Program-made: the position numbers and the translations under genes
The notes under the pieces: model-generated
Databases searched by the model: none
The model's input: the letters and a program-made list of their open reading frames with translations, nothing else
What the model was told of the DNA's origin: nothing
In this document: positions 4,343 to 51,854 of the stretch, piece after piece
How the letters are laid out: the number at the start of each line of letters is the position of its first letter
Position numbering within the stretch: the stretch's first letter is position 1
NCBI GenBank assembly: GCA_965178125.1
Contig: CBCXTV010000008.1
Coordinates: 1-51,854, forward strand
Length of the DNA: 51,854 nucleotides
Origin: Bilabrum cf. latius
Lineage: Eukaryota
Reading direction: 5' to 3'

Positions 4343-4618
4343 GGTCGAGAGACACCCGCCTGGCTTACGGGATCGTGCGCTCTTGAGCCCAAGTAGTACA
4401 TCAAGACGATCTGCATGACCATACGGCGGACTGCCATGGCTGCTGTGCAAAGGGGGTGAAGCTTTTGCTGGGTGAGCGCAAGGTGTTCGCAAGTCAGAAA
4501 GGCGTCTCGGGGTGCGCTATACAAACGTCAAAAGGAGAGACAAAGAGTCAAATGGCTTGCTGCAGCATTAGCCTGAGCCGTAGCTGCGAACAAGTCAATG
4601 AACAGTTGCACTGCGAGT
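4343..4618 (-). repeat. 3' LTR of copy 1 (276 bp)
   Basis: Direct repeat of 24014-24289 with about 4 differences. Element-strand ends ACTCGCAGTGCAA...TCTCTCGACC. Confidence 0.95.
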
Positions 4619-8100: not shown

Positions 8101-11100
8101 GGCTTCAGCCGATCGGCATCCACACCGCTGGCGGCCTCTCCCATTGAACACATGGCTTCGGCCCACACGTCGTCGTCGATCTTCACGAAGGGCACCACAA
8201 TGGCCTTCGGGTGCCCGCCGTCGTGGAATGAGTCCCTTAGACTCCTCTCGCGCGCCCGGGTGGCCTCGGCGCTCGTGCGCATCTGCTCAACCCTGGCCCG
8301 CAACGAGTGGGCGCTGCCAAGCTGGTCCAACTGCAATCGCTGCTCGATCTCCTGGGTCCTGGCACGCTTGTACGCGGGCTCCTCGTATGGTGACACGGTG
8401 ACCATCGCCAGGAGCTCGCTCTGGTTGATCGCCAATGAGGGACACAAGCTGGGCCTTGCGCCCAAGCGTCCACTCATATCCCTGGTGGGCAGCAGTGGCC
8501 CACACACTGGTGCGCGTCGACGGCGGGTCGTCACGGTTGCGAACGAGGCCTCGGCGCGCGGGATTGGTCTGCTCGTCGTCCAAGCGATCACGACTCTCGT
8601 AGAGATGCTTCGAGTCCATGGCCTCCGTCGGGACGGAGGTGTAAGGCATGACATCGTGGCGAATAAACGGTCGTGGAAGTTCGTCATGGGTCGGTGTGTC
8701 TGATGCGGAGCCGGTGGGCTTCAGCCGATCGGCATCCACACCACCGGTCCCCTCCTCCATGGCCGCGATGCCCATGTCGTCGCCCTTCTGGTCAAGCAGG
8801 GGCGTAGAACTTGTCGCACTCTGAGGGGCCAAGCGAGTCTCCAAGGCTGTCGGTCGTTTTCGCGGTGCACCCTGCTGGCTGTCACTCCCGAGAGCAAGAC
8901 TCGCGACCCTCTTCATGAGAGCCCTGACGCCCATGGTCTCCGCCTCGCTGGGCTCGGATTCGTCTGTGTCGCCACCAGACTGGAGACACGCTAACCGCTG
9001 CCGCGCGTCATCGGAGCTGGTCTCGGCCTCGTGCTCCACATGGTTGTGCTCCTCCGCAACGGGCGGAGGGGCTGTCGGCCTCGGCGCACACGTTGGTGGC
9101 CGAGCCGTCGGGGAGCCTCGCGTAGTAGCCGTCGATCCGCTGGGCGACGGCCTCGAGGCTCAGACCTGCGAGGCACGAGAGCCACACCTTGTCCTTGACA
9201 AAGTCCGGATGCGGCACCTCGACATTGAGCAAGCACTTGGGCGGAGAGCTGGGGCGCTCCTCCTTCTTCGTCAGGATCTGCCACAAGCTGGTGATGTCGC
9301 TCTGCTCCAAGCTGTGCGGGATCATCCATTCCGTGGCGATGGAAAAGCACTGCCTCGCCTTCTCCTTGATCGAGGCCACGTCCGGCGGATCGGTCGAATC
9401 GATCGTCATGCTCCGTTTCGGTCCCCACGGGAGGCCCAGCTGGTCCAACGCCGTCCCGATGCAGAAGGTGTACACGAACCTGCACAAGGACAAGTAGTCC
9501 TCCCGGAGCCACAGGTAGGCCGCTGCGATCTCGTAGGCGTCGCCGATCTGCTCATCGGTGGAGAACCAAGCGTCGAAGTCCCCAATGGCATCAGAGATCT
9601 CCTCGTACTCTTCCGGCCTTTCGCGTAGGGCAAGCACATCGGGCATGTACTTGTGCTCGTACGAGTATGTGTGGTTCTTGATCACGATGTAGCGAGCCCG
9701 GGCTTTGAGGATGCCTGCACGAAGGAGCAATTCCGTGGCTGCCCAGTCGACAATGAGCGAGCCCAAGTGGCTGACGTTCTTGAGCTGGTCCTTGTAGCCC
9801 TCGTGGCCAAACTTGTTCTTGAGGGCGCAGCCGACTCCGATAGCCACCAGAATGTCGTCATTGATCAGGCATCTGGGGCTGTGCTCCCCTGCAAACTCCC
9901 GCAGGTGGATGAGCGTTCTGCCCACCTCGAAGTCAATGTCGACTTGGCGCCTGCCGTCCTTGAAGTGCGTGTGCGAGTGCAAGAAGCCCCTCAAGGCCTG
10001 CTCGCACGCCTCGTCGCAGATCGGCCGATCATAGGCGAACGGGTCCGGCTTGAACCAGTGGAGGACGGTCAACAACGTCTTTTCAATGGAAATGGAGCCC
10101 TCCACTACGCTGGCTGTGACCCATCCACCGTCGTTCGTGCCGGACGGATCGATGTGGTCGGCGAACGGATACGTCCTTGTGTTCTGCAACGGGTTGTAGC
10201 CGCCTGGGTAGAAGGACGTTGTAGGTGACCTGTGCCTGGCGCGGACCGTCGGGAACATTGAGGCTGTGGCAGCGGTTTCAGAAGTCCAGAAGGAATGGCA
10301 TGACGAGCTGGGCTTCAGCCGATCGGCATCCGCACCAGACTCGTCCATCTGCTCGTCGTCGTCGTCATCCTTCTGGCTCTCTTCCGGCTGCTTCATGAGA
10401 TACGCCTCATTGTTCACCTCTTCGGCGGTCTTCAACGTGAGCGCAAAACGCTGGCTTCTTTCCTCAAGCACCTCTTCCCGCGTCTTGACGTCGAACAAGC
10501 CCTTGCCACCATTGAGCTGCGGGTTGAGGTGGTAGATGAGCTGGTCGAGCGTAGGGAGCGGCCACATGCCTCGTTGGATGTGTTCCGCCCCTGGAATCAT
10601 GCGGAAGTGCAGTCTGCCGTTGCTGATCATCTCCAAGACGAGCCGTGCTCGAGCCCGCCACTTCTGCCCCTTGTCGCCTGAGGCGGTCTCGTGTGCCAAC
10701 TTGCGGTTCCTCTTGTTGCGCTGGAAGTCGGCTTTGCTGTCGAACTTGCCTGGTCGCTTCCGCTGGTCGTAGTTGCTGGACCCGGAGACGACCTGGATGG
10801 CCTCCTGCTGCTGCGTAAGGCTCAGCTCCGGCGACGAGAGGCGCATGTTGGCTGGCGCGGCGCAGGTCGTGGAGATGACGTTCCCATCGGCATCGGTCAG
10901 CTCCGAGTCGCCGGTCTCCGGGCCGGTCAATGGGCCGGCCCTGTCATTGATCCAACCGACCTCGAACATGTCACGTGTGCCACCGGCTCCCTTCGGGTGG
11001 TGATGATTCATCTCGATGGTGTAGGGCACAAGGAAGCTGTAGTCCAAATGGCGGCCACCGCCGAGGGTACTTCCTAGGACATGGTAGTGGCGGTCGACAA

Positions 11101-12841
11101 ACCTCGTGCCCTCCGGTGTGGCATTGCCCTTGGCGACAATCTGCTTGTACTTCCGAGAGAGGACACTTTGCTCTGCGCCGTGTCCGAGCCGGGCCCTGGC
11201 GATCTGCTTGAGGTCCTGCCGCTTCTCCGGGCCGTTGAGGAACTCGTTCTCCAGCGTGCGCTTTCGGCTGAAGTCATTGAGCGGCGGGATGTCACCCTCA
11301 TAGGATTCGAGATCCATCACATAGCCCGGCCTGCATCGAACTGTCACCTTGGCGCACTTGGCCCGCAAGTCCTTGAATATGCGCACATGGTCGTTGCCAT
11401 CATGGAGGACGCGCGTGGTCGAGTCGCCGCCTTCGTCGAAATCGGTGACATTGATCTCAAAGTCATTGTGCAGAGCTCCACCGGATCCATCTCATACTCG
11501 ATGAGGGCATCCCGTAGGGCGTACTTGTCGGCGTACTCCGGAGGCGTGGCCAGGAGGTAGACATGGGTGATGTGCAAGTCCTCAGGACGGAAGCCGTAAG
11601 TGGGCGACTCGCCGAAACCTCGCCACAAGTAGCTATTCGGCTTGGCGACCACCCGGAAGACGGCGGTCATGGGGTGCGTGCCATCGGTGGCCAGCACCGT
11701 GCCCGGAGGAAAGTCCTGGGTTCCACACACCTTCGGATATTTGCACGCCTTCTGGAAGTCCTTGGTCAGTCGCACCATCGGGATCTCTGCTGAGGGACTC
11801 ACCACCATGGCTCCATTGATCGACTCGATCGGGGGCCTCTTCCGCCCCTCCGAGCTGACATTGCCGAGGTACCAAGCACCGGCGGTGAGCGACCCGGTGC
11901 CGTAGCTCGGCGCGAAGCCCTTTCGGAGGATGAGCGGCACACACGAGGCCCATGTGCCATGGTAGAGACACTCCGGCTCGTGGCCATAGTCGTCCGGAAT
12001 GGGAGTGCCGTTGGGGGTGCTCATCATGTAGCCCGGCGGCATGACCGTCGCGGCGATCGAGAGCGTCTTCTGGTACATGACCTTGTTGCTGGGCCACACG
12101 AACGGAGAGTCCGGGTACGACCCGGCATGCCGGCACTCCAAGAAGAAATCATTGGTCGAGGCGCGAGGTACGAAGATCAGTGGGAGGCTCACGTCGGCCT
12201 GCTTCTGGACCGTCTCGTACTTCCAAGCGTGCTCAAGCACGCTCGGGGAGTCGACGGCCGTGTTGATGCTCGGGGGAGGCCGCAGCTCCTCCTGCCTGAG
12301 CATGCGCGCCCGGTAGTCCATGTGCTCGTGGACCTTCTGGGCGCTCGGAAGCGGTGCGTCCGGAAGTCGCCTCTCGTACTCCGGTATGGTGAACCACGGA
12401 TGGCCCTCACCCAGGTTCCGCTCGTGCAAGAGCGGCTCGTCGTAGTACTCGTCGAAAGGCGGGTTCCGCGGGACCCACCGCTGCTGCGAGTGCTGCGAGT
12501 GCTGGTCCTCGTGGTAGGTCCAGTGCTCGTCGCTGTTCCGTGTGTACTGGGCCCACTCAGCGTCGCTCCACCAAGGAGCGCTCCGGCGCCTGGCGTTGGG
12601 GCCAGCTCCACTGCTGGCTCTCGCTGCTGGTGTGAGTCTGCTGCTGCGCCTCTCTGCCCGATGTCCAGTGGCTGCTGGATGACGACCACTGCTGTGTCGA
12701 GGAGGAGGCGCTGGGAATCGAATTCGGTTGGCCGGTGGGGTTCAGCCGATCGGCATCCCCACCACCAGTCCAAGAGCTGCCACTTTGCTGCCCGCTGTTC
12801 CCGTCCATCCATCCGGAACGCCAGCCGCTGCCGGCCGACAT
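5120..12841 (-). pseudogene. Accessory ORF2 of copy 1 (~2570 codons when frameshifts are repaired), ART-like and RNase III-like motifs
   Basis: ATG MSAGSGW at 12841. ORF pieces 11344-12429, 9008-11386, 8287-9039, 7128-8400 region and 5120-7282 are bridged by the homologous frames of copy 2. Stop at 5120. Confidence 0.8.
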
Positions 12842-24001: not shown

Positions 24002-24013
24002 GCTCCGCTACCA
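24002..24013 (-). promoter_or_regulatory. Primer-binding site, initiator-Met-type tRNA (TGGTAGCGGAGC)
   Basis: Starts TGG immediately after the 5' LTR and resembles the iMet PBS TGGTAGCAGAG. Identical in copy 2. Confidence 0.85.
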
Positions 24014-24289
24014 GGTCGAGAGACACCCGCCTGGCTTACGGGATCGTGCGCTCTTGAGCCCAAGTAGTACATCAAGACGATCTGCATGACCATACGGCGG
24101 ACTGCCATGGCTGCTGTGCAAGGGAGGTGAAGCTTTTGCTGGGTGAGCGCAAGGTGTTCGCAAGTCAGAAAGGCGTCTCGGGGTGCGCTATACAAACGTC
24201 AAAAGGAAAGACAAAGAGTCAAATGGCTTGCTGCAGCATTAGCCTGAGCCGTAGCTGCGAACAAGTCAATGGACAGTTGCACTGCGAGT
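24014..24289 (-). repeat. 5' LTR of copy 1 (276 bp)
   Basis: Direct repeat of 4343-4618, followed by the PBS. Confidence 0.95.
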
Positions 24290-30683: not shown

Positions 30684-30942
30684 ACTCGCAGTGCAACCGT
30701 TCAATGCCTTGTTCGCAGCTACGGCTCAGGCTAATGCTGCAGCAAGCCATTCGCGTTTCTGTGTTTGTATAGTCCTTTCACCGTGACACTTCCCGTGCCT
30801 GCGTATTCCCTGCGCTCAGAAACATCACTCCCTTGCGAGCAGCCATGGCATTCCGCTGTGTGGTCATGCAGATCGTCTTGACGTACTACTTGGGCTCAAG
30901 AGCGCACGATCACGGAAACCAGGCGGGAGGTGTCTCTCGACC
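30684..30942 (+). repeat. 5' LTR of copy 2 (259 bp)
   Basis: Direct repeat of 50407-50667 (5 substitutions and one 2-bp indel by eye). Confidence 0.95.
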
Positions 30943-30954: not shown

Positions 30955-31064
30955 AGTGTGGTTGCAGGACTTTCTCTCCTACCGATCCGCTCCTACGTCT
31001 CCGACCTCGGAGACGCCTGAGCGCGAACTCACCACCCGGCGGCAGCCTTGACGATGACGGTTCA

Positions 31065-34000
31065 ATGAAGCAATACGTGACAGACGTGACGGAGGCGAGC
31101 CGCACGACAGACCGGACGTCGGAAAGCACTCTGAAGGTGCAGCAGCGCATCCAACCCTCCGACGGTATCCACAGCCGTGTGCACTACATGTTGGGGATGG
31201 CCCACGCAATGGTACTTGCAGCAATCCTCTCCATCGTCTCCTACGCGATCCCGTACAGGCAAGCGCGCCAGATCACGTTGGGCAACCTAGACGGCGCCGC
31301 CCTCCTGGAACCCCGCCGGTCGCGGCTACACCTTGCGGGAATATATCGAGGACCTGCAGCGTTGGCTCAGTGTCACCCGGTACCAGCACCACGAGATAGG
31401 CAACATCATCGCCAACGGTCTGCAGGGCAGTGCCGCCTCCTACGACAGCGATGGAAGACGACCGACCTTGTCCGGGGCCGCACGAACGAAGCGACTGGCC
31501 ACGTCCAGGACCCCGTGTCGATGATCATCTCCGATCTCGTGGAGAAGTATGCGCCCAGGGCGGCCGACGATCAGGCCGCCATCGACGACGAGCTCCATCG
31601 GTTCGAGCGGTATTCGACGGAGACGTTTGAACAAATGCACGACCGCTATGAGTATCTACGGACGCGACAGCTCGAAGAGGGGAAGGAGTTCTTTCCTTGG
31701 CGCCACCATTGCCACCAGATGATCCGACTGAGTGGGCTTCCGCAGCACGCCTTGTGGGAGATTACAAGACGCCTTCCGGACAATGTCTTGCCCACGACGC
31801 ATGTTGGATACACGGACATGGTCAAGGACATCAAGACCTACGCCCTCTTGAAGGACCAGAATGCGTCCAATCCCCTCGTCGGCATCACCGAGACCTTCCC
31901 GATGGACGGAGCCGAGCTCGACCGGCGCGCCACGACGCGCCTCGTTACTTTCAGGCAGAGCAGCCCCAGATGCTTGTCGACAGCAAGTACAGCGAGAGGG
32001 CCCAGGCGTGCGCACCGAGCTTCTATCAGGGGCCGACCCCGATGACATGGAATCCGGTCAATGTGCAAGACGGAGCGTGTGGATGCCGATCGGCTGAAGC
32101 GCTTCGTCAGCTTGTGTCGCTCAGCCCTCATATGCATCAGTCTTTCGGCCGCCGATTCGAAGGGAGCTCCGACCTCGCTGCAAGACGAGGACAACATGGT
32201 CTCCTGATGACCCATGGGGAGTTGTACGGGTCAGACGCCGAGTCCTCGTCGGCTACCTCCTCCGACTACGGCAGAGGACGACATCGACCCCAGTCAGGCC
32301 GAGACTCGCGACGAGCAGATCTACTTCCAGTACCGAAAGGCCAAGCGAGATTGGCGCCGAGCGACGCGGCGCCCTACCAGACGGTTTCGCAGGCCTTCCG
32401 CTTCTTTAAGTTTCGTCGCGATCAGGCCGGGCACTTCCAGAAGAGACGACCGTACCAGGAAAGCCCTTCACTCGGCGCCATCACCAGTACCTAGCAGACG
32501 CCAGCGACCCTCAGGACATGCACGATTTCGGCACCTTCCTGTTCAACAAAGGAAAGGGAAAAGGAAAAGGAAAAGGCAAGTTCTCCACAGCAGGTGGTTT
32601 CGGGCGCCTGCGGAACCCCGTTGGATCCGATGGGAAGGTGATGACGTGTCGCATCTGCGGGTCCGAGGAGCACTTTGCCGCCCGCTGCCCTCAGAAGGGC
32701 GGTGGGAAAGGAGGACAATCCGGAAACGATCAGCTGTGCACTATGGTGGGACTCCATGGTCCTCATGGCAGATGGGCCCAGGTTCTACATCTTCCTTCTC
32801 ACAAGGGTCCGCCGAGCGCAATCCGATGTTCCAGGGCTACATGGTCAATGCACACATGACTAGGCCGGTCGACACGTCCGGCGCCCTCTGGAACGACGAG
32901 AGCTTGCGCGCGCCCCAGTGGGGGATGGACACTCCACAGTCCTCTTCCACTCCCAGGTTGAACAATTCCCTGGGTCTGGTGACTTTCGCCAGGTCTTCAT
33001 GACGAACTCCCAGTACAGCGACGACGCAGCCGCCTCACACACCAGTTCCACGAGCACTAGTGGCTCAGTTCCGAGTCTGGTGAGGGCAGGTTATCTCCCC
33101 GCGAGCGCGAGCAGTCAGCAGCCGTCGTATGCTTGTATGGCGACAGTGGCACAGCAAGTTTGAAGAGAAGGACACGTACACCTGGGACAAGAAGTACCAG
33201 TCGCAGACCATGAATCAGGAGCTTCCCCACTGCCGACTCTCTATGAGAAGAAACGCTTGGACGGCTACCAGAGGCAACAGGGCTACTGCCAGCGCGACGA
33301 TGGCGGAGGACACCTGATCGCCAGTACTGATCGAGCAGCCGACCGAGTGAGTGACACAGTGGTGGAGCTCCTCAAGCACACCAAGCAGAAGAAGGAACAC
33401 TTCGCCCCTCAGTTCTACCAAGACGCCGACCGTTTGAATGTTCGGCCCGGCAGCTATCACCTCGCCGAAGTGATCCGATCGAACCGGGACCTCCAGCGGC
33501 AACAGCAAGGTGCAGAGCAGCGCGAGGGGCCGCGGGCAGCCTCGCGACTACGTTGCTGAGATGGGTCAATGCTGGCGGGACAAGATCGGCAAGGAGCTCT
33601 ATGAGCACACCCTCGTGCAGGCCTCCATGCAGGCCACAGGTGCCGCTGTGGGCTCGGCATACCAGGACTTGATCAATGCCAGTCTCCGGCCGACGCAGCC
33701 TGCGCCGGTTCCAGGTCCTTCGATGATGTACCAGGACCTGATCGACGCCAGCCTTCGGCCGATGCAGCCTACACCGGCCCCGAGACCGTCGAATTCAGGG
33801 CCAGCCGGGAGCACTCAGCCGCCGACCGCAAACTATGTGAGCAACCCCAACACCAAGGGCGTCCCAGTGTACACCTCCGGCGCACCCATGTCGTTCACTC
33901 CAGACAGGAACTCGGCCAGCAGTGAAAGCACGCAGCGAACACAGCCGGTGCCGAGCCGCTCAATGTATGGCACATTTGTTGGCCAGACGATGCCAGTGAA

Positions 34001-37000
34001 CGATGCGGATGCCGGACATGGTGGTGGTGGGGATGCCGATCGGCTGAACCCCGCCAGCCAATCTGCAATTCACACGGTCGGTGGCCAGGCATGGGGCGCT
34101 TTGACGAATGTGGCGCTCAATGTGATCAGCGTGGCTCAGAGCGCCCTGGGAAGCAGCACTACGCAGAGCTATTCGATTGCGCCCTCGACACCCGTTGTGA
34201 GTGCCCAAGGCATTGCAGGCCATGCCGAGTGGAGACCGCAGCTCCGTCCGCCTACAGCCGCGCCGCCGTCGGCGTCGGCCTCAGGCATTGGGAGCGCAGT
34301 CATGCTCGACGAAACGCCGATCACGTACCCGATCCTGGCCCCCATGCCGGCGAGCCAGGACGTTTTGATGCACGACGTGACCTTCGATGTGTCCGCCCGT
34401 TCCGGGCGGCAGCCGAGTCGATTCAGCAAACATCTCCGGCGACGGCGTCCGTGCCCGCGAAGGACCCTGAGCTTGCACGGGCGCCAGTCTCGCGACGTAC
34501 GAATCGGAGGACACCCGTTCAGAAGGTGACCAAGAAGAAGGAGGCACAACGCCGAAGGCGCACCTCACGCAGCCCAGTTCATCAGAGCGTTCGCCGTCGC
34601 AAGTCCGCGAGTCGTCCGTGGAAAAGCGTTCCGCCCCCGACACACCGGTTGAGCACCCTTTGCAGGTCAGGCGAGCAACACCCCGCATGAACGACGCGCT
34701 CACGACGACCGCACCGACAGCCCCTCAATGTGACGATGTCGTCGCCGGCAGTTCGGCGGGGCCGCTTGTTGGCGAGCAGGAGCAGTATCACGACCACAGC
34801 CACGACTCCTGTGCTGTCTGCCAGCAGCCGTGGTGCGAGGTGAAGCACGACGATGGCTGCGTCGAGTCTGTCGAGTCCAACACGGTGGTTCTCTCGTGCG
34901 GGTGCCGTTTGCATGCCAAGTGCTACGGCGAGTACGAGTATCAGGAGTACAGCGTCTTCCGGACCAAGTTCGAGCAGGTCATAGGTGACTACGACCATCA
35001 CCTGCAGGGATCCGATGCATGCGAGTCCCTGTTCAACTATCTGACCTGCCCGAAGTGCACCGAGGCCATCTATGTCAAGACCTATGTTGACGCCGAAGGG
35101 AACCCTCGCGATGGCTTGGCGAAGGCCCCCGTGTTGTGGGCCGTCCACCCGCCGGGCACCATGGAGCCGGGTTCTCATCGTGTTGACGGCCTCTTAAGCA
35201 CTCCGACTGCTGCTTGGGCTCCAAAGGTCAAGCAGGCCTTCCGGCAGTACGCGATGTCCAAGCCGGAGCTCCAGTGGCTGCAAGTGGATCCAGAGCTCAG
35301 TTCGAGTGCGGAGGAAGACGAAGTGACGACGATGCTGAACGAACCAAAGACGACCACCGACGTGACGACGGAGATGGAAGGGGCAACCCACTACACGACA
35401 TACGAGAACATGCACTATCAGGACGCACCGCTGCGGGTCAATGGAGCTATGGCGACTACTACCACATGAACACGAGGCCGCTTGACGGCAGCAGCGCCCT
35501 CCTCATTGACCCGGGCTCCGTGGGTAACCTCTGCGGTGATCAATGGGCCCTTGGACTTCAAGCGATCGACCATGGGTATCGACCGTCAGAGTACACCAGG
35601 CCGAAGCCCCTCCGCGTTTCGGGGGTCGGCCACGGGTCGCAGTGGTGCAATAAGGACGTGCGTTTGCCCATCGTGCTCAAGTCCGACACAAGAGCCGACG
35701 CCATTTTGGGCGATTTCATCACTCCGATCGTGCCGAACTCGGAGCTGCCAGGTCTCTTAGGCCTGGCCACCATGCGCAATGCTCGCGCGATCCTCGACCT
35801 TCAGGACATGCGTATGTACCTCTGTGGCGAAGGGGACTACGACTTGACGAAGGCGCTGCCTCCTGGCACGGAGAGCTTCAAGCTTGAGACGTCACCCAGT
35901 GGTCACCTGCTGCTCCCCTGCAGCAACTTCGGCGAGAAGAGCCTCGCGGCGAGGAAGATCAGCCTGCTGACGCAGGAGAGCAGCGAGCAACCGACCATGG
36001 CCGAGCAGACCGAGAACAAGGTGGTGTCGTTTCGCACTGTGGCGCCGACCACGCCGAAGTCCCCGGCACCGCCGGCGCCCCCGATCCTTCCGGTCCATCT
36101 CGAGACCATGGGAGCGGACTTTGCCAGTCAGCCAGAGAGAGTGAAGGCCCCACCATGTGGATGCCGATCGGCTGAAGCTGGTGGGGTCCCTTTTGACAAA
36201 CCTTGCGCAGCCTATCCGTGCAGTGTGTTCAATGTCTCAGGGTTCAATGCATTCTTTGTGGCGGGAACCGCGCATGTGATTGGCAGTCGCCCGCCAGAAG
36301 TAGAGCATCTGCAAGGACCACGGGCTGAGCGGCTGCACCCTGCACCGCCTGTCCGACGCGATGCGCGCCCGCAACAAGGACCATCTCCCGTGGCAGGGCA
36401 AGCAGCTGCTCATTGAAGTGCCCCCACAGATGAACCCCGGGTTCGAGCACACGCTGAAGAGTCTGGTCTTGCCTGCCATCAACTCTGGCACGAGCGTCAC
36501 CGTGTTCTCTGTGCCCGATGGCAAGCGGCAGAGCCAGCGACACACCTGGCTCGACATTTGGAACAAGGTGCATGGCACGGACATCTTCCGCTTCGTTCGC
36601 CGAGGCATTCGCACTTTCGTCCCCGACAGCGGCGACAACCGTCAGGTGTATGTCGCCAGCACATGCCGCCTCCCAGACGACGCAGACAGCGACTCCATTC
36701 CAACGAGAGGGACGACGTGTGGCCTCTTCCGCCGCATCTTCGTGTTACTTGCGGTTGCCTTGTTGATCCTCTTGGGTGCCAAGGTACTTGCGTCTGGCGG
36801 CCGGGATCAGGGCGTCCCAGGACACACCAGACTCAGCAGTTTGGGCCCGCCCGCGGGCGGACCCAGCAGATCACTCAACAAGTACCACCTACGCGTGAAC
36901 ACGAACACGACAGAGCCGCCTCCGGGCGGACACGAACTCCAGACACAGCAGGCCCCAGAAGCAGGACACAGCGGCAGCCAGTCACAACAGCAGTGCGATC

Positions 37001-42000: not shown

Positions 42001-45000
42001 CCGTTTCTAGGACTCTGGTCCCAGGAGACTGCTCCCAGCGCGTACTGCCCGCGCCAGTAGATCACCCGTCGCATCATACTTTTTCGCGATGTCGGCCGGC
42101 AGCGGCTGGCGTTCCGGATGGACGGACGGGAACAGCGGGCCGCGCAGCGGCAGCTCTTGGACCGGTGGTGGGGATGCCGATCGGCTGAACCCCGCCGGTC
42201 AACCGAATTCGATTCCCAGCGCCTCCTCCTCGACACAGCAGTGGTCGTCATCCAGTAGCCACTGGACCTCGGGCAGGGAGGCGCAGCAGCAGACTCACAC
42301 CAGCAGCGAGAGCCAGCAGTGGGGCTGGCCCCAACGCCAGGCGCCGGAGCGTTCCTGGTGGAGCGACGCTGGGTGGGCCCAGTACGCATGGAACAGCGAC
42401 GAGCACTGGGATTACCACGAGGACCAGCACTCGCAGCAGCGATGGGTTCCGCGGAACCCGCCTTTCGACGAGTACCACGACGAGCCGCTCTTGCGCGAGC
42501 GGAACTTGGGCGATGGCCATCCGTGGTTCACCATCCCGGAGTACGAGGAGCGACTCCCGGATGCACGGCTCCCGAGTGCGGAGAAGGTCCACCAGCACAT
42601 AGACTTCCGGGCACGCATGCTCAGGCACGAGGAGCTGCGGCCTCCCTCGAGCATCAATGCGGCCGTCGACTCCCTGAGCGTGCTCGAGTACGCGTGGAAG
42701 TACGAGACGGTCCAGAAGCAGGCCGACGTAAGCCTCCCGTTGATGTTCGTACCTCGCGCCTCGATCAATGATTTCTTCTTGGAGTGCCGGCATGCTGGGT
42801 CGTACCCGGACTCTTCGTTCGTGTGGCCCAGCAACAAGGTCATGTACCAGAAGACGCTCTCGATTGCCGCGACGGTCATGCCGCCGGGCTACATGATGAG
42901 CATTCCCAACGGCACTCCCATTCCGGACGACTATGGTCACGAGCCGGAGTGTTTCTACCATGGCACATGGGCCTCGTGCGTGCCGCTCATCCTCCGAAAG
43001 GGCTTTGCGCCGAGCTACGGCACCGGGTCGCTCACCGCCGGTGCTTGGTACATCGGCAATGTCAGTTCGGAGGGGCGGAAGAGGCCTCCGATCGAGTCGA
43101 TCAATGGAGCCATGGTGGTAAGTCCCGCAGCAGAGATCCCGATGGTGCGAATGACCAAGGACTTCCAGAAGGCGTGCAAGTATCCGAAGGTGCGTGTGAC
43201 CCAGGACTTTCCTCAGGGCACGGTGCTGGCCACCGATGGCACGCACCCCATGACTGCCGTCTTCCGGGCGGTCGCCAAGCCGAACAGCTACTTGTGGCGA
43301 GGTTTCAGCGAGTCGCCCACTTACGGCTTTCGCCCCGAGGACTTGCACATCACTCACGTCTACTTCTTGGCCACGCCTCCGGAGTACGCCGACAAGTACG
43401 CCATACGGGATGCCCTTATTGAGTACGAGATGGATCCGGTGGAGTTGCACAACGACGTTGAGAATAATGTCATCGATTTCGACGAGGGTGGCGACTACAC
43501 CACGCGCATCCTCCACGACGGCAACGACCATGTGCGCATCTTCAAGGACCTGCGGGCCAAGTGCGCCAAGGTGACCGTGCGATGCAGGCCGGGCTTTGTG
43601 ATGGATCTCGAGACCTATGAGGGTGACATCCCGCCGTTCAATGATTTCAGCCGGAAGCGCACATTGGAGAACGAGTTCCACACGGCCCGGCGAAGCGGCA
43701 GGACCTCAAGCAGATCGCCAGGGCCCGGCTTGGACACGGCGCAGAGCAGAGTGTCCTATCTCGGAAGTACAAGGAGATCGTCGATAAGGGCAAGGCCACA
43801 CCGGAGGGCACGAGGTTCGTCGACCGCCACTACCATGTCCTAGGAAGCACCCTTGGCGGCGGCCGCCATTTGGATTACAGCTTCCTCGTGCCGTACACCA
43901 TCGAGATGAATCACCACCATCCGAAGGGAGCCGGTGGCACACGTGACGCGATTGAGGTCGGTTGGATCAATGACAGGGCCGGCCCGTTGACCGGCCCGGA
44001 AACCAGCGACTCGAAGTTGATCGACGCCGACGGGAATGTCATCTCCACGACTTGTGCTGTGCCAGCAAGCATGCGCCTCTCGTCGCCGGAGCTGAGCCTC
44101 ACGCAGCAGCAGGAGGCCATCCAGGTCGTTTCCGGGTCCGGCAGCTGTGACCAGCGGAAGCGACCAGGCAAGTTCGACAGCAAGGCCGACTTCCAGCGCA
44201 ACAAGAGGAACCGCAAGTTGGCACACGAGACCGCCTCAGGCGACAAGGGGCAGAAGTGGCGAGCTCGAGCACGGCTTGTCCTGGAGATGATCAGCAATGG
44301 CAGATTGCACTTCCGCATGATCCCAGGGGCGGAGCACATCCAGCGGGGCATGTGGCCGCTCCCGACGCTTGACCAGCTCATCTACCACCTCGACCCTCGG
44401 TTCAATGGTGGCAAGGGCTTGTTCGACGTGAAGACACGGGAAGAGGTGCTTGAGGAAAGAAGCCAGCGCTTCGCGCTCACGTTGAAGACCGCCGAGGAGG
44501 TGAACAACGAGGCATACCTCATGAAGCAGCCGGAAGAGAGCCAGAAGGACGATGACGACGACGAGCAGATGGACGAGGCTGGTGCGGATGCCGATCGGCT
44601 GAAGCCCAGCCCGTCATGCCATGCCTTCTGGACTTCCGAAAGCGCTGCCACAGCCTCAATGTTCCCTCCGGTCCGCGCCAAGCATAGGTCGCCTACGACG
44701 TCCTTCTACCCAGGCGGCTACAACCCGTTGCAGAACTCAAGGACGTATCCGTTCGCCGACCACATTGACCAGTCTGGCACGAACGACGGCGGGTGGGTCA
44801 CGGCCAGCGTAGTGGAGTGCTCCATTTCCATCGAAAAGACGCTGATGACCGTCCTCCACTGGTTCAAGCCGGACCCGTTCGCGTACAGTCAACCGATCTG
44901 CGACGAGGAGTGCGAGAAGGCCTTGAGGGGTTTCTTGCATTCGCACACGCACTTCAAGGACGGCAGGCGCCAAGTTGACATCGACTTCGAGGTGGGTAGG

Positions 45001-48000: not shown

Positions 48001-50100
48001 CGTGCCGCAAGCAGGCCGACGAGTTTCCACTACCGCGAGATGGCCGAGAAGATGGCGGAGCGCATGGCATCCAAGGTCGACGACGACGCATGCCATTCCT
48101 ACCGCCGCTTGATCAATGACTGCCGCCACCAGGACGAGCCGGCCGAGATCAGCCACATGACAGAGGCGAAGGAGAGCGGCGAGTGGAGCATCCCTTGTGG
48201 CTCGATGGGGCCAGTGGGGGTCATCGGGCCGCTTCCGCCACTTTCTTACGGCCGGGAGATTGACAAGGACAACAAGGGCTTGAGACTCCTCACCGGGATG
48301 TTTGGGTTCATGAACCCCGCCGACACCGTTGACGCGATAAATGCGAGGCCAGCCAACGGCGGTTTTGTTGCTTCCCTCGGCCAGATGTCGAAGAGCAAGT
48401 TGAAGGCGGTCGGACACCAATTTGAATCAAGCTCAATGGTCGAGCCGCTCGCCAAAGCCATGTTCCAGTTCTGGGTCGACGGCCGGCGGAAGAAGCGCCG
48501 ATTGGCCAACGCGTTCGCTGACTTCATCCCGGCGAAGCCCATGGATGAGCCAGACCTGGAGAAGTGGGCCGCAGAGTGCACGTGTGCGATCGGGCCAGTG
48601 CAGTCCACCTCTTCATCTTTCTTCTCAATGCTGTCCCGCTATCCGAACTACTACGAGCCCTGTCGCGGCGTTGGCGAGCTCCGGGAGAAGTTTGCCCAGC
48701 AGGAGCACGACCAGCGCGAGAAGGGCAATGTTGTGCTTCGGACGGCCGCCCAGTGCAGATCCTCTGATCAATGTTACCGACGCCATGAGGTGGGCACACG
48801 GGCCCCCAAGTGGCCCGCCATCCGGAGCGCGCACATCTCTCTGCGCGACGACGACGACGACAGTTCCGACAGCGATTGGGACAGTGAGTCCGTTCACCAC
48901 AAGCCATGGATCCCAACAGATCGGTCCGTCCACGTTCAAGAGGCCATCGAGACCTACATCACGAGCAACCTCCAGGCCATCGTGGACGCACCGGAGGTCT
49001 TCTTCCAGTGGCAACCCGCGTACGACCAAGTGCTCCCGTGGCATTTGACCTTGAAGAGGGACCTGCCGAAGAAGCATAGGAACTTCTGGGAGTACGAGTG
49101 TCCAAATGGGGAGCGGAAGCGAGCATACCAGCAGCAGATCGTGAGGATGGACGAGCACGGCCGCGAGGACTACCTCTACAGGCCGAACGAGCGGCAGGAT
49201 ATCAGTTTCCCCGTGTTGTGGGACAATCTGTCGTTCATCCAGGCCTACATCCGACGCCATCGATTCCTTGAGCGACGGCCGTCCCGCGCTCCCGATGGTA
49301 TGGCGGGAGGTTCGTCTCCGCCAGGTGGCTCAAGGAGCATCCGGACGTCGGGAAGTGGTACTTCTCATTGAAGGGCAACGGCAAGCTGACCGACGAGGAC
49401 GTTGCCGCATTCGGGGACATCCACGATGAAGAGGCGATGACGAAGATCAGCAAGATCGGGACCGAGTTGTTCAAGGACATCGCCGAGAAGGTTGGCGATT
49501 GTATTGCGATGATGACGGTCCCTGAGTTCATTGCCAGGATCTACCAGAGTGCCTACACGGGCATGTTCCCGCCGATCATGCACGCCATGCTCGGCCGCCA
49601 CGCGGACTACGTCATGGAGCGCGTGTTGACCGAGGTTGAGACAGTGCCGCTGTGGACGGCAATGACGACGACGACCAAGACGAGGAGATGAGCAGTGCGA
49701 GTCCTCCCGGCGAGACTGGGGCCCAGGAGAGCAAGGCCCCGACGAAGGATACGACGGCGCCGATGGAGGACGAGGATCCCGACTGGGGTCCCTAGAACGA
49801 CGATGTCAGGCTTAATGCAGGGTGGCAGTCTGAAAGTAGCTTGGTGAAGCCCCGAGTAGTGTGGATGCCGATCGGCTGAAGCCTACTCGGGGCAGCTCTC
49901 AATCAGCCATTTCAGCATTCGGATCAATGGGGCATTGAGGTCGGAAAGCCGGACGCTCGGCTCACGGCTCACGAGGTCAGCATGAAAGCTTGTGGGTCAA
50001 CGCCGTGGAGCTTCTCCCTTCGAATGACATCTGCGCGTTGCAGTGTGGGTGCCGTTCAATGCTCTGCGGTGTGGATGCCGATCGGCTGAAGCCCGCAGGT
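32068..50100 (+). repeat. 13 dispersed stem-loop repeats in copy 2
   Basis: Cores at about 32077, 34027, 36155, 37725, 39725, 41288, 41870, 42168, 44582, 46179, 46794, 49859 and 50069, orthologous to the 13 in copy 1. Confidence 0.95.
42089..49795 (+). pseudogene. Accessory ORF2 of copy 2 (frameshifted; ART-like and RNase III-like motifs)
   Basis: ORFs 42089-43843, 43870-45624, 45407-47203, 46900-49371 and 49368-49691 tile the region. Protein is highly similar to copy 1 ORF2 with many third-position changes. Confidence 0.8.
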
Positions 50101-50406
50101 GCTGCAGCCCGTGCCGACCAGTGACAGTACAGCCGACAAGAATGTCGGGAGCTTTAGGGGTTGACACAGCGGTTCTTGACACACCCCGGCCTTCCTTTGT
50201 TCATCCTTTGCGTGAACGCGTCGGGCCTGGCCCGACAGACACCGCAGTATAGTCTGTTTGCGAAGGCGGGCACGATATGAGCCCTATGCGCTGCGAGCGC
50301 GACCTCCGCAACCTTTTCGTTCAATGTTCGGGCCATACAGGGCTCGAGCATGTACGACCTGCAGTCTGACTGTCTTGGGCCGTACCGCTCGCCCAGGACA
50401 CACCAG

Positions 50407-50667
50407 ACTCGCAGTGCAACCGTTCAACGCCTTGTTCGCAGCTACGGCTCAGGCTAATGCTGCAGCAAGCCATTCGCGTTTCTCTGTTTGTATAGTCCTT
50501 TCACCGTGACACTTCCCGTGCTTGCGTATTCCCTGCGTTCAGAAACATCACTCCCTTGCGAGCAGCCATGGCATTCCGCTATGTGTGGTCATGCAGATCG
50601 TCTTGACGTACTACTTGGGCTCAAGAGCGCACGATCATGGAAACCAGGCGGGAGGTGTCTCTCGACC
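50407..50667 (+). repeat. 3' LTR of copy 2 (261 bp)
   Basis: Direct repeat of 30684-30942. Confidence 0.95.
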
Positions 50668-51130
50668 GCTGCCCCTTGGTGACTACCGCCTGCGCACGGT
50701 ACTCAACCAACTTCTCCGCCGTGAAGTCAACCCCGTGGACCCACAGATCGTCGAAGATCTTCTCAAGGTCCTTGGGCGCCGACATCGTCTTGACAAGCAA
50801 GAGACATTCCCAATTGTTCTCAAACGCGTTCCTCGTCGCGTTGGGCGATCCGCTCAAGAGCACCGCCCCGTCAATCAGGAATGACTTCCTGTGGAGGTTG
50901 GCGCCGTGGTTCCGCCTTGGAACCGTGAACGTCCTGATGCTGATCCCGGCATCGATGAGTAACTTGACCTTCATGAACTGCCGCTTGCAGGAGGGCAGCC
51001 TCATCTGGCCGTCATCGAACAACAGCCTCACCTCCACCCCGCGACCAGACGACTTCCTCAAGATATCCACGATCTCATCGTGGTCGAACGTGTAGATCGT
51101 CGCCTTGATCGGCTTCTTCGACTTCTCGAG
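50668..51130 (-). CDS. Single-HKD phospholipase D / Nuc / Zucchini-like nuclease domain, 3' end cut by the LTR
   Basis: ATIYTFD...GRGVEVRLLFD...NLHRKSFLIDGAVLLSGSPNAT...NNWE matches HxKx4Dx6GSxN. Confidence 0.88.
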
Positions 51131-51854
51131 CTCCCCCCAAGAAGGCGCCGGCAACGGCTTCGCCGGCGACCACACTGACGGAGTCCCGGTCGCTCTTGCT
51201 CTTGCTCCCAACTCGGGCTCGGGCGCTCGCCGAAGCGCTCCTCAAGGCACCGGCTAGGGCGGACGTGCTCGAGTACGACGGCCTTCCCCTCGTACTCCGC
51301 AAGGCAGCTCCCTCGCCCGACGTCCCAGACCGTCCCGACGACCGTGTGGTGAGGCGAAGCCCGTTGAAGCAGCTCCCTGCTAGCCCCCTGCTCGAAGAAG
51401 CCTCCTCCGACTGCGCTACGTTCATGAGCGCTCCGGCCGACCGCGGCCGAACCCCGGCCGATGAATCACCTCCGCCCTGTCCCGCACGATGCGCAGCGGA
51501 GAGAGGGAGGCGAAGATGCGCGCGCAGGACTTCATCCGCAGGCTCCGCGCGCACTCGGTCCGCAATCCGCCTCGCCACCTGGTCCTTATCCTGAGCGTAG
51601 GGCGACGGCCAGATGTGGGCGAACTTCTTCTTCACGTGGAACACCATGACCACGGTCTTCCAAGCGGTCCACAAGATGACGATGACCACTCCTGCATGGA
51701 GCGCTGAACCCGCGGTCCCCACTGAGCGACGAATCACTTCCTCGGACTCCTCGCCCGCGGCCTCGACCACGGAGATCGTCGTGTCCGCCACCTTCGTCGC
51801 GACCTGGTAAAACTTCCACCCAGTCACCGCGGCCACGAACCCCCCGAGCGTCAC
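51075..51854 (-). CDS. Partial ORF with hydrophobic helices and Ser/Ala-rich linker, probably the frameshifted upstream part of the PLD-domain protein
   Basis: Overlaps the PLD ORF in another frame; hydrophobic segment ALHAGVVIVILWTAWKTVVMVF. Confidence 0.4.
   Translation of the reverse strand: MTLGGFVAAVTGWKFYQVATKVADTTISVVEAAGEESEEVIRRSVGTAGSALHAGVVIVILWTAWKTVVMVFHVKKKFAHIWPSPYAQDKDQVARRIADRVRAEPADEVLRAHLRLPLSAAHRAGQGGGDSSAGVRPRSAGALMNVAQSEEASSSRGLAGSCFNGLRLTTRSSGRSGTSGEGAALRSTRGRPSYSSTSALAGALRSASASARARVGSKSKSDRDSVSVVAGEAVAGAFLGGAREVEEADQGDDLHVRPR

What the first reader, a model, noticed from the sequence alone, without database searches (positions are those of the whole stretch)
42089..49795. 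Very large (~2570 aa) sense-strand accessory ORF after RNase H in a copia element
Seen: 7.7 kb of coding sequence between RNase H and the 3' LTR in both copies, with frameshifts at different places and many synonymous differences. No obvious signal peptide or TM anchor, so it does not look like env. Established: copia elements are usually about 5-10 kb and extra ORFs are mostly env-like. Inference: a multi-domain effector maintained by selection, and a candidate partner for the hairpins.
Basis: partly seen in the sequence, partly recalled or inferred. Interest (0 to 1): 0.8.

Follow-up and report, generated by a model that had tools for sequence, protein, structure and literature searches.

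The report
Giant extra gene in 20-kb retrotransposon
Both copies of a 20-kb copia-like retrotransposon carry a real, selection-maintained coding region of about 2,565 amino acids after RNase H that matches no known protein family, so the element encodes far more than it needs simply to copy itself.

Summary
Confirmed. The window holds two head-to-head copies (91% identical) of a ~20-kb LTR element with Ty1/copia gene order. Region 42089-49795 in copy B (5120-12841, minus strand, in copy A) is coding. Every ungapped block has exactly one frame free of stops in both copies. Pooled dN/dS is 0.18 (95% CI 0.15-0.22; 2,508 codons), against 0.08-0.13 for pol.

Each copy has five frameshifts, at different places. 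The protein has no membrane segment, so it is not env-like. It is not nested or recently captured: dS and codon usage match pol, it carries the element's own hairpin motif, and related contigs cover it in four public runs.

It lies in phase with pol. Copy A reads straight through; copy B has a TAG. It may therefore be a Pol extension or readthrough product rather than a free-standing ORF.

No family library or solved structure gives a significant match. An exhaustive search of 1.84 billion proteins found 13 hits, all unnamed fragments. Both structure predictions failed.

Two weak leads remain: a Trp/Ser/Gly/Gln-rich N-terminus resembling an Argonaute hook, and a PARP-like HGT…GF…SY motif (E 0.24). 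A role as partner of the hairpins is untested.

The parts
42089..49795 (+). Copy B: the extra coding region (ORF2 or Pol extension), about 2,565 codons, broken by 5 frameshifts (43682, 45386, 47143, 49281, 49651). Local frames (coordinate mod 3) run 2, 1, 2, 1, 0, 2.
5120..12841 (-). Copy A: the same coding region, broken by 5 other frameshifts (B-equivalent 42356, 43445, 45830, 46473, 47649). Its terminal TAG is at 5120-5122.
41936..42088 (+). Linker between the end of RNase H/Pol and the ATG at 42089. A and B differ here by indels of 1, 1, 7 and 3 nt. Copy A is open and in phase from pol into ORF2; copy B has TAGs at 41998 and 42008. Read in copy A's continuous frame, 7 of 10 substitutions are at third codon positions.
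   Evidence: table 4 for position 41996
42089..42508 (+). N-terminal Trp/Ser/Gly/Gln-rich, poorly hydrophobic stretch. It has 14 W in the first 150 residues (9.3%), 13 of them next to a small or polar residue. The W pattern is kept in relative P0006. It resembles a GW/WG 'Ago hook'.
42947..43051 (+). PARP-like motif (…HGTWAS.VPLI.R.GF.PS.GTG…GAW…), invariant in 4 of 4 aligned family members. It aligns to the His and Tyr NAD+-pocket motifs of the PARP14/15/10 catalytic domains.
47668..48555 (+). Conserved C-terminal module (…GAYSQFY…STITMVGEALSTTWIN…GVIGPLPPLSYGREID…INARPA.GF…). It is shared at 25-43% identity with four unnamed metagenome proteins (P0014, P0015, P0017, P0019).
48823..49795 (+). 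Last module (…RSAHISLR, acidic patch, …PEVFFQWQ…LPWHL…IRRHRFLERRLQKA…) and acidic tail. It is shared at 30-52% identity with P0009 and P0016.
42160..42200 (+). Hairpin with conserved apical loop GGATGCCGATCGGCTGAA, inside ORF2 and translated as GGGDADRLNPA.
44574..44614 (+). Hairpin inside ORF2, in an acidic linker, translated as AGADADRLKPS.
46171..46211 (+). Hairpin inside ORF2, in a disorder-prone linker, translated as GGVDADRLKPT.
46786..46826 (+). Hairpin inside ORF2, translated as SGVDADRLKPA.
49851..50101 (+). 3' untranslated region holding two further hairpins (49851-49891 and 50061-50101).
31023..42010 (+). Copy B ORF1: 5.3 kb of unexplained coding sequence, then integrase (weak Pfam rve at 38191-38445), RT (weak RVT_2 at about 40487-40780) and RNase H (to about 41800). 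Copy A is continuous across the 36290 junction.
30684..30942 (+). Copy B 5' LTR, followed by a PBS-like TGGTAGCGGAGC.
50407..50667 (+). Copy B 3' LTR.
4340..4618 (-). Copy A 3' LTR.
24011..24289 (-). Copy A 5' LTR.

Best explanation
SHOWN: the 7.7 kb after RNase H is an integral protein-coding part of a giant (~20 kb) Ty1/copia-like LTR retrotransposon. Purifying selection acted on it while the two lineages diverged. Both copies have since been broken by frameshifts.

SHOWN: it is in phase with pol. Copy A has no stop between pol and this region. Copy B has a TAG.

INFERRED (about 55%): it is made as a C-terminal extension of the Gag-Pol polyprotein, or by read-through of that TAG, and is not a free-standing gene.

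SHOWN: the product is about 2,565 aa and soluble, with no TM segment. Hydrophobic stretches alternate with disorder-prone linkers. It belongs to an orphan family known only from unnamed metagenome fragments.

INFERRED (about 25-30%): it acts on the host and not in reverse transcription or integration. The N-terminal Trp-rich stretch would dock onto Argonaute/PIWI proteins. The adjacent PARP-like domain would ADP-ribosylate them or another protein or RNA target, blunting small-RNA silencing of the element.

The conserved hairpins that cross the region are nucleic-acid signals merely tolerated by the reading frame; they are not peptide motifs.
For: Coding and selected: one stop-free frame per block in both copies, omega 0.18 (CI 0.15-0.22) over 2,508 codons, each of four sub-segments 0.15-0.19.

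Integral to the element:
- It is collinear in both copies.
- dS is 0.24, against 0.22-0.31 for the rest.
- RSCU correlation with pol is 0.89 and with the 5' region 0.91, against 0.30-0.63 for shifted-frame controls.
- Four signature hairpins lie inside it.
- Contigs of 4 of 4 laid runs (3 studies) cover all 30 bins.
- No direct repeats flank it and it has no paralogue elsewhere in the window.

In phase with pol:
- Copy A's ORF 12557-15916 runs from RT through RNase H into the first ~95 codons of the region.
- Three of the four A/B linker indels (+1, -7, -3 in B) sum to a multiple of three.
- 7 of 10 linker substitutions fall on third positions of copy A's frame. Binomial P is about 0.02 for that frame, or about 0.06 allowing for three frames.
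- The A-like state at 41996 holds 53-100% of contig depth in the four runs (table 4).

Host-directed role:
- There are 14 W in the first 150 aa (9.3%, against 1.3% in the next 381 aa), in a 17% Ser, 10% Gly, 9% Gln context with 7% hydrophobic residues. The W pattern is retained in the 62%-identical relative P0006, with 11 W in 150 aa.
- In a profile of 4 family members searched against PDB, 13 of the 14 hits at E<=10 are PARP14/15/10 catalytic domains (best E 0.24) and the 14th is an RNA 2'-phosphotransferase of the same superfamily. All align on the HGT…GF…SY…G.Y motif.
- The ESM Atlas lists PARP catalytic-domain clusters at 0.88-0.90.
- ADP-ribosylation of Argonautes relieves microRNA silencing in human cells (passage read in PMC5322727).
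- A plant-virus suppressor binds Argonaute through WG/GW motifs (PMC2904775, title and abstract start from the listing).

Hairpins are not peptide motifs: the 11 coding-region sites in copy B are read in two different phases. As B stands, 7 read as DADRL(K/N) and 4 as (G/D)CRS(A/V)E. One of those 4 (39731) reads DADRLK in copy A, which lacks B's extra base there. None of the 11 uses the phase containing TGA.
Against: No significant homology supports any function.
- Pfam, NCBIfam, PADLOC and PHROGs gave nothing credible.
- phmmer against PDB gave nothing.
- The PARP hits are below significance (E 0.24-1.2), span only 35-50 residues, and place an invariant Trp where PARPs have the Tyr. The third catalytic position could not be located.
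- Atlas scores of about 0.9 occur for 4-10% of shuffled proteins, by the tool's own figures.
- Both AlphaFold runs failed (mean pLDDT 29.8 and 42.2), so no fold evidence exists.
- The Ago-hook reading rests on composition only. It is not known whether the host has Argonautes, or what the host is.

Against the fusion/read-through reading:
- Copy B has stops before the ATG.
- The ATG is kept in A, B and P0006.
- P0006 was called from that Met, which implies a nearby upstream stop or break in that relative.
- Four indels fall within the 153-nt linker, against about one per 470 nt inside the region (16 indels in about 7,560 nt). That looks like relaxed constraint.
- No RNA run was listed, so expression is unknown.
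Confidence: 0.55

Rival explanations
1. It is a free-standing second gene. Pol ends at the TAG near 42000-42010, a short non-coding spacer follows, and translation starts at the ATG at 42089 on a subgenomic, spliced or trans-spliced mRNA, as retroviral env and plant env-like ORFs are expressed.
For: Copy B has TAGs at 41998 and 42008 and its ORF opens at 42011 with the first ATG at 42089. The ATG and the MSA(G/S) start are shared by A, B and P0006. Four indels (1, 1, 7 and 3 nt) crowd into the 153-nt linker. Sense ORFs between pol and the 3' LTR are a known class, and spliced expression has been reported for some (PMC7264820, first of three parts read).
Against: Copy A is open and in phase through the linker. 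Linker substitutions favour third positions of that frame, 7 of 10. The gene caller's choice of Met in P0006 is not evidence of initiation. No RNA data could be obtained.
Confidence: 0.35
2. The region encodes structural or RNA-binding proteins that recognise the 13 conserved-loop hairpins spread along the 20-kb RNA. It would act in packaging, export or dimerisation of an unusually long genome.
For: The hairpins are real. There are 26 matches to the loop motif against 0.04 expected. All 13 of 13 copy-B sites fold alike. Of cells, 94.8% are paired against 72% in shuffles (0 of 500 shuffles as high), and 10 of 14 pairs change on both sides. They lie every 0.2-3 kb on the sense strand only. An element of twice the usual size with about 4,300 aa of unexplained protein leaves room for such a partner.
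Against: No RNA-binding domain, zinc knuckle or basic nucleic-acid-binding module was recognised in the region, apart from one basic NLS-like patch. The unexplained 5' region, where Gag would sit, is at least as good a candidate. Nothing here tests binding.
Confidence: 0.15
3. It is a captured host gene or a nested foreign element that happens to sit in these two copies.
For: It has no similarity to any retroelement protein, and GC3 is somewhat higher (0.80 against 0.71-0.72).
Against: It is collinear in two independent insertions with different flanks. It has the same dS as pol and the same codon preferences. It carries the element's own hairpins. There are no internal LTRs or flanking repeats. 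It is in phase with pol. Contig cover in four runs is comparable to that of the 5' region. Relatives at 62-88% identity sit on unnamed contigs of 5-22 kb.
Confidence: 0.05
4. It is not a gene: decayed non-coding sequence with chance open frames in GC-rich DNA.
For: Both copies carry frameshifts, and GC-rich DNA gives long spurious ORFs on both strands.
Against: Omega is 0.18 with a tight interval. Exactly one frame is stop-free in both copies in each of 13 blocks. The wrong frames mostly carry stops, with omega at or above 0.9 in 23 of 26 rows. Distant protein-level relatives exist at 25-52% identity.
Confidence: 0.02

Closest known systems
Sense additional ORFs between pol and the 3' LTR of LTR retrotransposons (env-like aORFs of Athila, Bagy2 and others; reviewed in PMC7264820)
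   Same: Position and orientation match. It is present in both copies held and covered by related contigs in four runs, and its conservation is comparable to gag-pol.
   Different: There is no transmembrane segment or signal-like start. It is about 2,565 aa where, from recall, such ORFs have a few hundred. It is in phase with pol and fused to it in one copy. The host element is copia-like and 20 kb long.
Accessory domains built into Pol polyproteins (chromodomain and 3'-5' exonuclease, PMC6338049; DNMT in SymbioDIRS and KnitGypsy elements with Ka/Ks<0.2, PMC5890265)
   Same: Extra protein sharing the Pol reading frame, kept under purifying selection, and thought to act on host silencing or chromatin.
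   Different: Those are single recognisable domains. Here about 2,565 aa match no Pfam family. That paper states that Symbiodinium Copia elements lack DNMT (passage read).
SmTCL Ty1-copia-like elements of Symbiodinium microadriaticum (PMC5776459)
   Same: LTRs with integrase upstream of RT and RNase H. The family is abundant, as is this one in the runs laid.
   Different: SmTCL3 is described there as about 10 kb, and no extra ORF or hairpin is mentioned in the part read (first of two parts). This element is 20 kb.
PARP14/PARP15/PARP10 catalytic domains (mono-ADP-ribosyltransferases, H-Y-[I/L] type)
   Same: Local motif: 13 of 35 aligned residues are identical to PARP14 over the His and Tyr NAD+-pocket motifs. 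PARP clusters appear among Atlas look-alikes.
   Different: E is 0.24 at best. Only 35-50 of the roughly 190 residues align. Trp stands in place of the Tyr. The third triad position was not found. There is no Pfam PARP hit and no usable model.
GW/WG 'Ago-hook' regions (GW182 family from recall; viral suppressor P1 of Sweet potato mild mottle virus, PMC2904775)
   Same: Many tryptophans flanked by Gly, Ser, Asp or Gln in a low-hydrophobicity stretch. The Trp pattern is kept while its neighbours change.
   Different: Only 4 strict GW/WG dipeptides among the 14 W. No binding test was possible. The host Argonautes are unknown.
In-frame TAG read-through between gag and pol of gammaretroviruses (recalled, not looked up here)
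   Same: Two coding regions in the same phase separated by a single TAG, as in copy B once its own shift at 41936 is allowed for.
   Different: Here the stop lies after pol, not before it. One copy has no stop at all. No read-through signal was sought or found.

Membership tests
Ty1/copia LTR retrotransposon (host element) | Two LTRs in direct orientation flanking the coding region | tested here: met
   LTR pairs of 259-279 nt, 97-99% identical, 19.7 kb apart in both copies.
Ty1/copia LTR retrotransposon (host element) | Integrase upstream of reverse transcriptase; RT of the RVT_2 type | tested here: inconclusive
   Pfam rve E 9.6e-4 (19.8 bits, cut-off 32.6) at 38191-38445. RVT_2 E 9.6e-5 (22.5 bits, cut-off 31.6) downstream. 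Both are below the curated cut-offs. The order is right, and by eye (recall) the translations show an HHCC motif, HVDD, TRVDI and ADGLTKG. PDB phmmer found nothing.
Ty1/copia LTR retrotransposon (host element) | Usual length of about 5-10 kb (typical, not strictly defining) | tested here: not met
   19,950 and 19,984 bp.
env-like additional ORF | Sense ORF between pol and the 3' LTR | tested here: met
   42089-49795, same strand as pol.
env-like additional ORF | Transmembrane segment(s) and a signal peptide | tested here: not met
   Maximum Kyte-Doolittle 19-residue mean is 1.39, below the usual 1.6 cut-off. The N-terminus is Ser/Gly/Trp-rich, not hydrophobic.
env-like additional ORF | Expression from a spliced subgenomic mRNA | not testable with these tools
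   No RNA holder was listed. Contigs cannot show transcripts.
PARP / diphtheria-toxin-like ADP-ribosyltransferase catalytic domain | Significant sequence or profile match to the catalytic domain | tested here: inconclusive
   No Pfam PARP hit even at E<=5. Profile against PDB: 13 of 14 hits are PARPs, but with E 0.24-1.2. Atlas scores 0.88-0.90.
PARP / diphtheria-toxin-like ADP-ribosyltransferase catalytic domain | H-Y-E (or H-Y-I/L/Y) residues of the NAD+ pocket (PMC5322727, passage read) | tested here: inconclusive
   His is present and invariant in 4 of 4 (HGT). The aligned Tyr position holds an invariant Trp followed by Tyr or His. The third position is not alignable.
PARP / diphtheria-toxin-like ADP-ribosyltransferase catalytic domain | ART fold | tested here: inconclusive
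   AlphaFold model has mean pLDDT 29.8 with no residue above 50. No fold search was run on it.
GW/WG Argonaute-binding platform | Multiple Trp residues flanked by small or polar residues in a disordered region | tested here: met
   14 W in 150 aa, 13 with a small or polar neighbour, 7% hydrophobic residues. The pattern is kept in P0006.
GW/WG Argonaute-binding platform | Trp-dependent binding to an Argonaute/PIWI protein | not testable with these tools
   No host Argonaute sequence is available. The complex predictor accepts only session sequences or bacterial, archaeal and phage references.

The most novel reading that the evidence does not exclude
A giant retrotransposon carries its own counter-defence and genome-handling kit. 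One part would be a ~2,565-aa Pol-linked protein whose Trp-rich hook recruits Argonaute/PIWI and whose divergent PARP-like domain ADP-ribosylates them, or RNA ends, to switch off small-RNA silencing. The other part would be 13 structured hairpins written through the coding sequence as RNA signals for further modules of the same protein. That would be the first retrotransposon-encoded ADP-ribosyltransferase and the first silencing suppressor of this type in a retroelement.
Probability: 0.15. Interest if true: 0.85.

Novelty: new variant of a known kind. Interest (0 to 1): 0.62.

Why it matters
LTR retrotransposons are thought to need only Gag and Pol. Extra ORFs are rare, small, and mostly env-like or of unknown role. 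Here about 40% of a 20-kb element's coding capacity is an orphan protein kept under selection nearly as strong as on integrase, in a family so abundant that tens of thousands of contigs in single public runs match it.

That implies a function important to the element's success. It is most plausibly an interaction with host control systems, in an organism whose transposon control is unstudied. The region also gives about 2,565 aa of new protein space that 1.84 billion representative proteins barely touch. It further shows how a structured RNA signal can be threaded through a reading frame.

Tried and rejected
Family libraries:
- Pfam on 19 plus-strand frames of copy B.
- Pfam on 10 ORF2 pieces of both copies at E<=5. 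The only result was noise: AXH at 0.063.
- Pfam on 11 relatives. The only result was GvpL at 0.031.
- NCBIfam, PADLOC and PHROGs on 10 proteins each. Only weak stray hits, with best E 0.0026 for BrxC on 54 residues of relative P0010.

PDB by sequence:
- phmmer with the four ORF2 pieces found 0 hits, or noise at E>=0.68.
- The A3 profile gave E>=0.75.
- The pol pieces gave 0 hits.

Homologue searches:
- Near length: 2 of 4,644 candidates.
- Longer: 0 of 2,360.
- Shorter: 2 of 184.
- The exhaustive search gave 13 hits.
- All 10 hits looked up are unnamed single-member clusters from one source.

Structure prediction: pLDDT 29.8 and 42.2. Both are too poor for a fold search, so none was run.

ESM Atlas on the C-terminal 713 aa: no usable hit.

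Public collections:
- JGI metagenome contigs with the A1 profile: none.
- The 21-nt loop in metagenome contigs: 6 loci, all sharing one unrelated GC-rich flank without stems, so chance hits.
- Viral contigs: none. The A3 profile was too variable to scan with.

Rfam on copy B at E<=1: only a chance miRNA hit at E 0.49.

Sequencing runs: no RNA holder was listed, so expression is open. Contig joints and depth were treated as weak. Several joints fall next to hairpins and may be assembly artefacts.

Not available: the whole genome, earlier findings, and genome search through my loci.

A spliced-leader motif typed from recall had 0 matches in the window at up to 3 mismatches.

Paper searches found no description of the loop sequence or of such an element. 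Supplements were closed and were not consulted; those of PMC5776459 may list element structures.

Rejected readings:
- The recurring peptide GxDADRLKP as a protease or 2A-like site. The same DNA motif is read in a second phase as GCRSAE at other sites, and it also occurs in the 3' UTR.
- Internal duplication of ORF2 modules. tblastn found only self matches and copy-A matches.

Full report
WHAT IS IN THE WINDOW

The window holds two copies of one LTR element lying head to head. Copy A is on the minus strand at 4340-24289. Copy B is on the plus strand at 30684-50667. Each copy has short LTRs of 259-279 nt that are 97-99% identical within the copy and 19.7 kb apart.

The interiors align end to end at 90.99% identity over 19,682 columns. 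The flanks do not align, so these are separate insertions and not one inverted duplication. LTRs compared between copies are only 78-81% identical. A run of N lies at 25244-25443.

Pfam sees only two weak, sub-threshold domains, integrase (rve, E 9.6e-4) and then copia-type RT (RVT_2, E 9.6e-5 in copy A). This is the Ty1/copia order. By eye, and from recall, the translations show an HHCC zinc motif, HVDD, TRVDI and the ADGLTKG end of copia RNase H. The 'copia element' premise therefore holds, but for a very divergent lineage. PDB sequence searches with these parts found nothing.

THE OBSERVATION

I aligned the copies (76 indels). For every ungapped block I counted stops and substitutions in each frame.

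From 31023 to 49650 each block has exactly one frame free of stops in both copies, and that frame carries the third-position excess. The four large sub-segments give 0.15-0.19. For comparison:
- PR-IN gives 0.13.
- RT-RNase H gives 0.08.
- The 5.3-kb 5' region gives 0.24.
- The 3' UTR, run through the same best-frame procedure, gives 0.58.

The true end is a TAG at 49793-49795, shared by both copies once each copy's shifts are followed. The start is an ATG at 42089, present in both copies.

Copy B changes frame five times, at 43682, 45386, 47143, 49281 and 49651. Copy A changes frame five times elsewhere, at B-equivalent 42356, 43445, 45830, 46473 and 47649. Four further indels are multiples of three. 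Neither copy has a stop in the coding frame inside any block. I cannot tell real decay from assembly error. For several of copy B's 1-nt differences elsewhere in the element, most related contigs carry the other state (table 4).

IS IT PART OF THE ELEMENT?

Every test says yes.
- The region is collinear in two independent insertions.
- Its dS equals that of the rest of the element.
- Its synonymous codon preferences correlate with pol at r=0.89 and with the 5' region at 0.91. Pol against the 5' region gives 0.88, and shifted-frame controls give 0.30-0.63.
- No repeat pair brackets it, and it has no paralogue in the window.
- Contigs of four public runs from three studies cover all 30 bins of the element (65,951 contigs in one run). 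Summed depth over the region is about 0.55-0.65 that of pol and about 1.2 times that of the 5' region. The tool warns that such depth is not a copy number, so I give this little weight.
- Four of the element's 13 signature hairpins lie inside the region.

SEPARATE ORF OR POL EXTENSION?

In copy A, one open frame (12557-15916) runs from RT through RNase H, across the linker, and about 95 codons into the region. In copy B the linker 41936-42088 differs from A by indels of 1, 1, 7 and 3 nt. Three of them (+1, -7, -3 in B) sum to a multiple of three, but the stretch between them is then read in another phase and meets a TAG at 42008.

Read in copy A's continuous frame, 7 of the 10 A/B substitutions in the linker are at third positions. 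Binomial P is about 0.02, or about 0.06 allowing for three frames. At 41996 the A-like state holds 58%, 72%, 100% and 53% of contig depth in the four runs.

Several points favour a separate ORF:
- Copy B has stops before the ATG.
- The Met is conserved.
- The unnamed relative P0006 (62% identical) was called from that Met.
- Indels are crowded in the linker.

My estimate is about 55% for a Pol extension or TAG read-through product and about 35% for a gene with its own start. Upstream, copy A is also continuous from the 5' region into PR/IN. On the fusion reading the element would encode one polyprotein of roughly 6,200 aa.

WHAT THE PROTEIN IS

It has about 2,565 aa, no TM-like segment (maximum 19-residue hydropathy 1.39), no zinc-knuckle pattern and no Walker A pattern. 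Hydrophobic stretches alternate with disorder-prone acidic or Ser-rich linkers, and one basic NLS-like patch is present.

No library gave a credible hit: Pfam, NCBIfam, PADLOC, PHROGs and PDB sequences. Word-indexed searches of 5.8 billion proteins found four close fragments. An exhaustive HMMER search of 1.84 billion representatives with the last 848 residues found 13 proteins. Eight are close fragments, and a few are 26-36% identical over conserved motifs such as GVIGPLPPLSYGREID, INARPA.GF and IRRHRFLERR. All 10 hits looked up are unnamed single-member clusters from one source, and none has a Pfam domain. The family is therefore older than this element but essentially undescribed.

Both AlphaFold attempts failed, with 4 and 8 sequences and mean pLDDT 29.8 and 42.2. 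I ran no fold search on them.

TWO LEADS

First lead: the Trp-rich N-terminus. The first 150 residues hold 14 tryptophans (9.3%, against 1.3% in the next 381 residues) in a Ser/Gly/Gln-rich, 7% hydrophobic context. Thirteen of the 14 have a small or polar neighbour. P0006 keeps the tryptophans while the surrounding residues change. This is the signature of GW/WG Argonaute-binding platforms (recall). A viral suppressor using such motifs is reported in PMC2904775 (title and abstract start only).

Second lead: the PARP-like motif. The following globular part contains …(F/L)(Y/F)HGTWAS.VPLI.R.GF.PS.GTGS.T.GAW…, invariant in 4 of 4 members.
- A profile of these four searched against PDB gave 14 hits at E<=10. 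Thirteen are PARP14/15/10 catalytic domains (best E 0.24) and one is an RNA 2'-phosphotransferase of the same superfamily. All fall on the His and Tyr NAD+-pocket motifs, with 13 of 35 residues identical to PARP14.
- The ESM Atlas independently listed PARP catalytic clusters at 0.88-0.90.
- Neither result is significant alone. A Trp replaces the Tyr, and the third triad residue was not found.
- I put an ART fold at roughly even odds.

Argonautes are ADP-ribosylated under stress in human cells, with relief of microRNA silencing (passage in PMC5322727). This is why I combine the two leads into a counter-silencing hypothesis, at about 25-30%.

THE HAIRPINS

The recurring peptide G(G/V)DADRL(K/N)P led me to a DNA motif, GGATGCCGATCGGCTGAA(G/C)CC. 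It occurs 13 times per copy, always on the sense strand: 26 matches against 0.04 expected.

All 13 copy-B sites fold into the same shape. A 9-13-bp stem of unrelated sequence closes a conserved apical part made of a 2-bp helix, a 4x4 internal loop, and GCC/GGC with a GAUC loop. On 25 aligned sites:
- 94.8% of cells pair, against 72% in shuffles (0 of 500 shuffles as high).
- Structures slid by 1-3 columns pair at 23-52%.
- 10 of 14 pairs change on both sides.
- The rows include A/B orthologues, so about 13 are independent.

In copy B as it stands, 7 of the 11 coding-region sites read as DADRL(K/N) and 4 as (G/D)CRS(A/V)E. One of those 4 (39731) reads DADRLK in copy A, which lacks B's extra base there. 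None of the 11 uses the third phase, which contains TGA; the chance probability is about 0.012. One site sits in an expanded loop inside RNase H. Three of the four sites in ORF2 lie in the least hydrophobic windows.

The hairpins are therefore nucleic-acid signals tolerated by translation, not peptide motifs. Whether ORF2 binds them is untested. Rfam has no match, and the loop string is in no paper searched.

COMPARISON WITH WHAT IS KNOWN, AND NOVELTY

Sense additional ORFs between pol and the 3' LTR are a known class, mostly env-like with TM segments (PMC7264820, first of three parts read). Single accessory domains inside Pol are also known: chromodomain, exonuclease and DNMT (passages in PMC6338049 and PMC5890265). 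Symbiodinium copia elements are described as about 10 kb (PMC5776459, first of two parts read).

I found no description of a copia-like element with a ~2,565-aa non-membrane extension, or of these hairpins (searches; supplements were closed). I file it as a new variant of a known kind.

I could not test it: no genome was held, and a spliced-leader motif typed from recall had no match in the window.

VERDICT

Interest 0.62.

Noticed in passing
window 32082-50090 (+) and 4858-22866 (-): Thirteen hairpins per copy share a 21-nt conserved apical sequence and have covarying stems, on the sense strand only, spaced 0.2-3 kb apart. They are translated in two of three phases and never in the phase containing TGA. 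One sits in an expanded loop of RNase H (B 41293).
   Followed up: yes
window 31023-36290 (+); copy A 18650-23930 (-): About 5.3 kb (roughly 1,750 codons) upstream of PR/IN is also coding (omega 0.24), has no Pfam match, and is continuous with pol in copy A. A recognisable Gag was not identified.
   Followed up: partly
window 50621-51211 (-): An ORF with a clear PLD-like domain (PLDc_2, E 1.9e-23) abuts the 3' LTR of copy B and overlaps it by about 47 nt. It may be the gene or element into which copy B inserted.
   Followed up: no
window 24290-30683: The 6.4 kb between the two 5' LTRs is 70-73% GC at 26-30 kb. It holds 132-nt tandem-like repeats (27011-27380), an RVT_1 reverse-transcriptase fragment (29460-30050, minus strand, E 8e-5) and the N run at 25244-25443.
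   Followed up: no
LTRs: 30684-30942, 50407-50667, 4340-4618, 24011-24289: LTRs are 97-99% identical within a copy but only 78-81% between copies, although the interiors are 91% identical. The LTRs therefore evolve much faster than the coding part. They do not start and end with the usual TG…CA, and I could not identify target-site duplications.
   Followed up: partly
window 33998/41268, 41322/34074, 39674/50064 (tables 5 and 5c): Single contigs in public runs join distant parts of the element at or next to hairpins. The hairpins at 34032 and 41293 have nearly identical stems. These could be assembly artefacts at a shared repeat, or deletion derivatives made by template switching between hairpins.
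   Followed up: no
hairpin loop, e.g. window 46796-46820: From recall only: the loop core GCC-GAUC-GGCU-G-AAG resembles the GCC-AUUUU-GGCU-C-AAG part of the dinoflagellate spliced leader. The 4x4 internal loop (GGAU/UGAA) could form tandem sheared G·A pairs of the kind bound by L7Ae-type proteins. The spliced leader itself has no match in the window.
   Followed up: partly
window 44150-44270 (+): A basic patch (…QRKRPGKFDSKADFQRNKRNRKLAHE…KWRARAR…) in ORF2 looks like a bipartite nuclear localisation signal.
   Followed up: no
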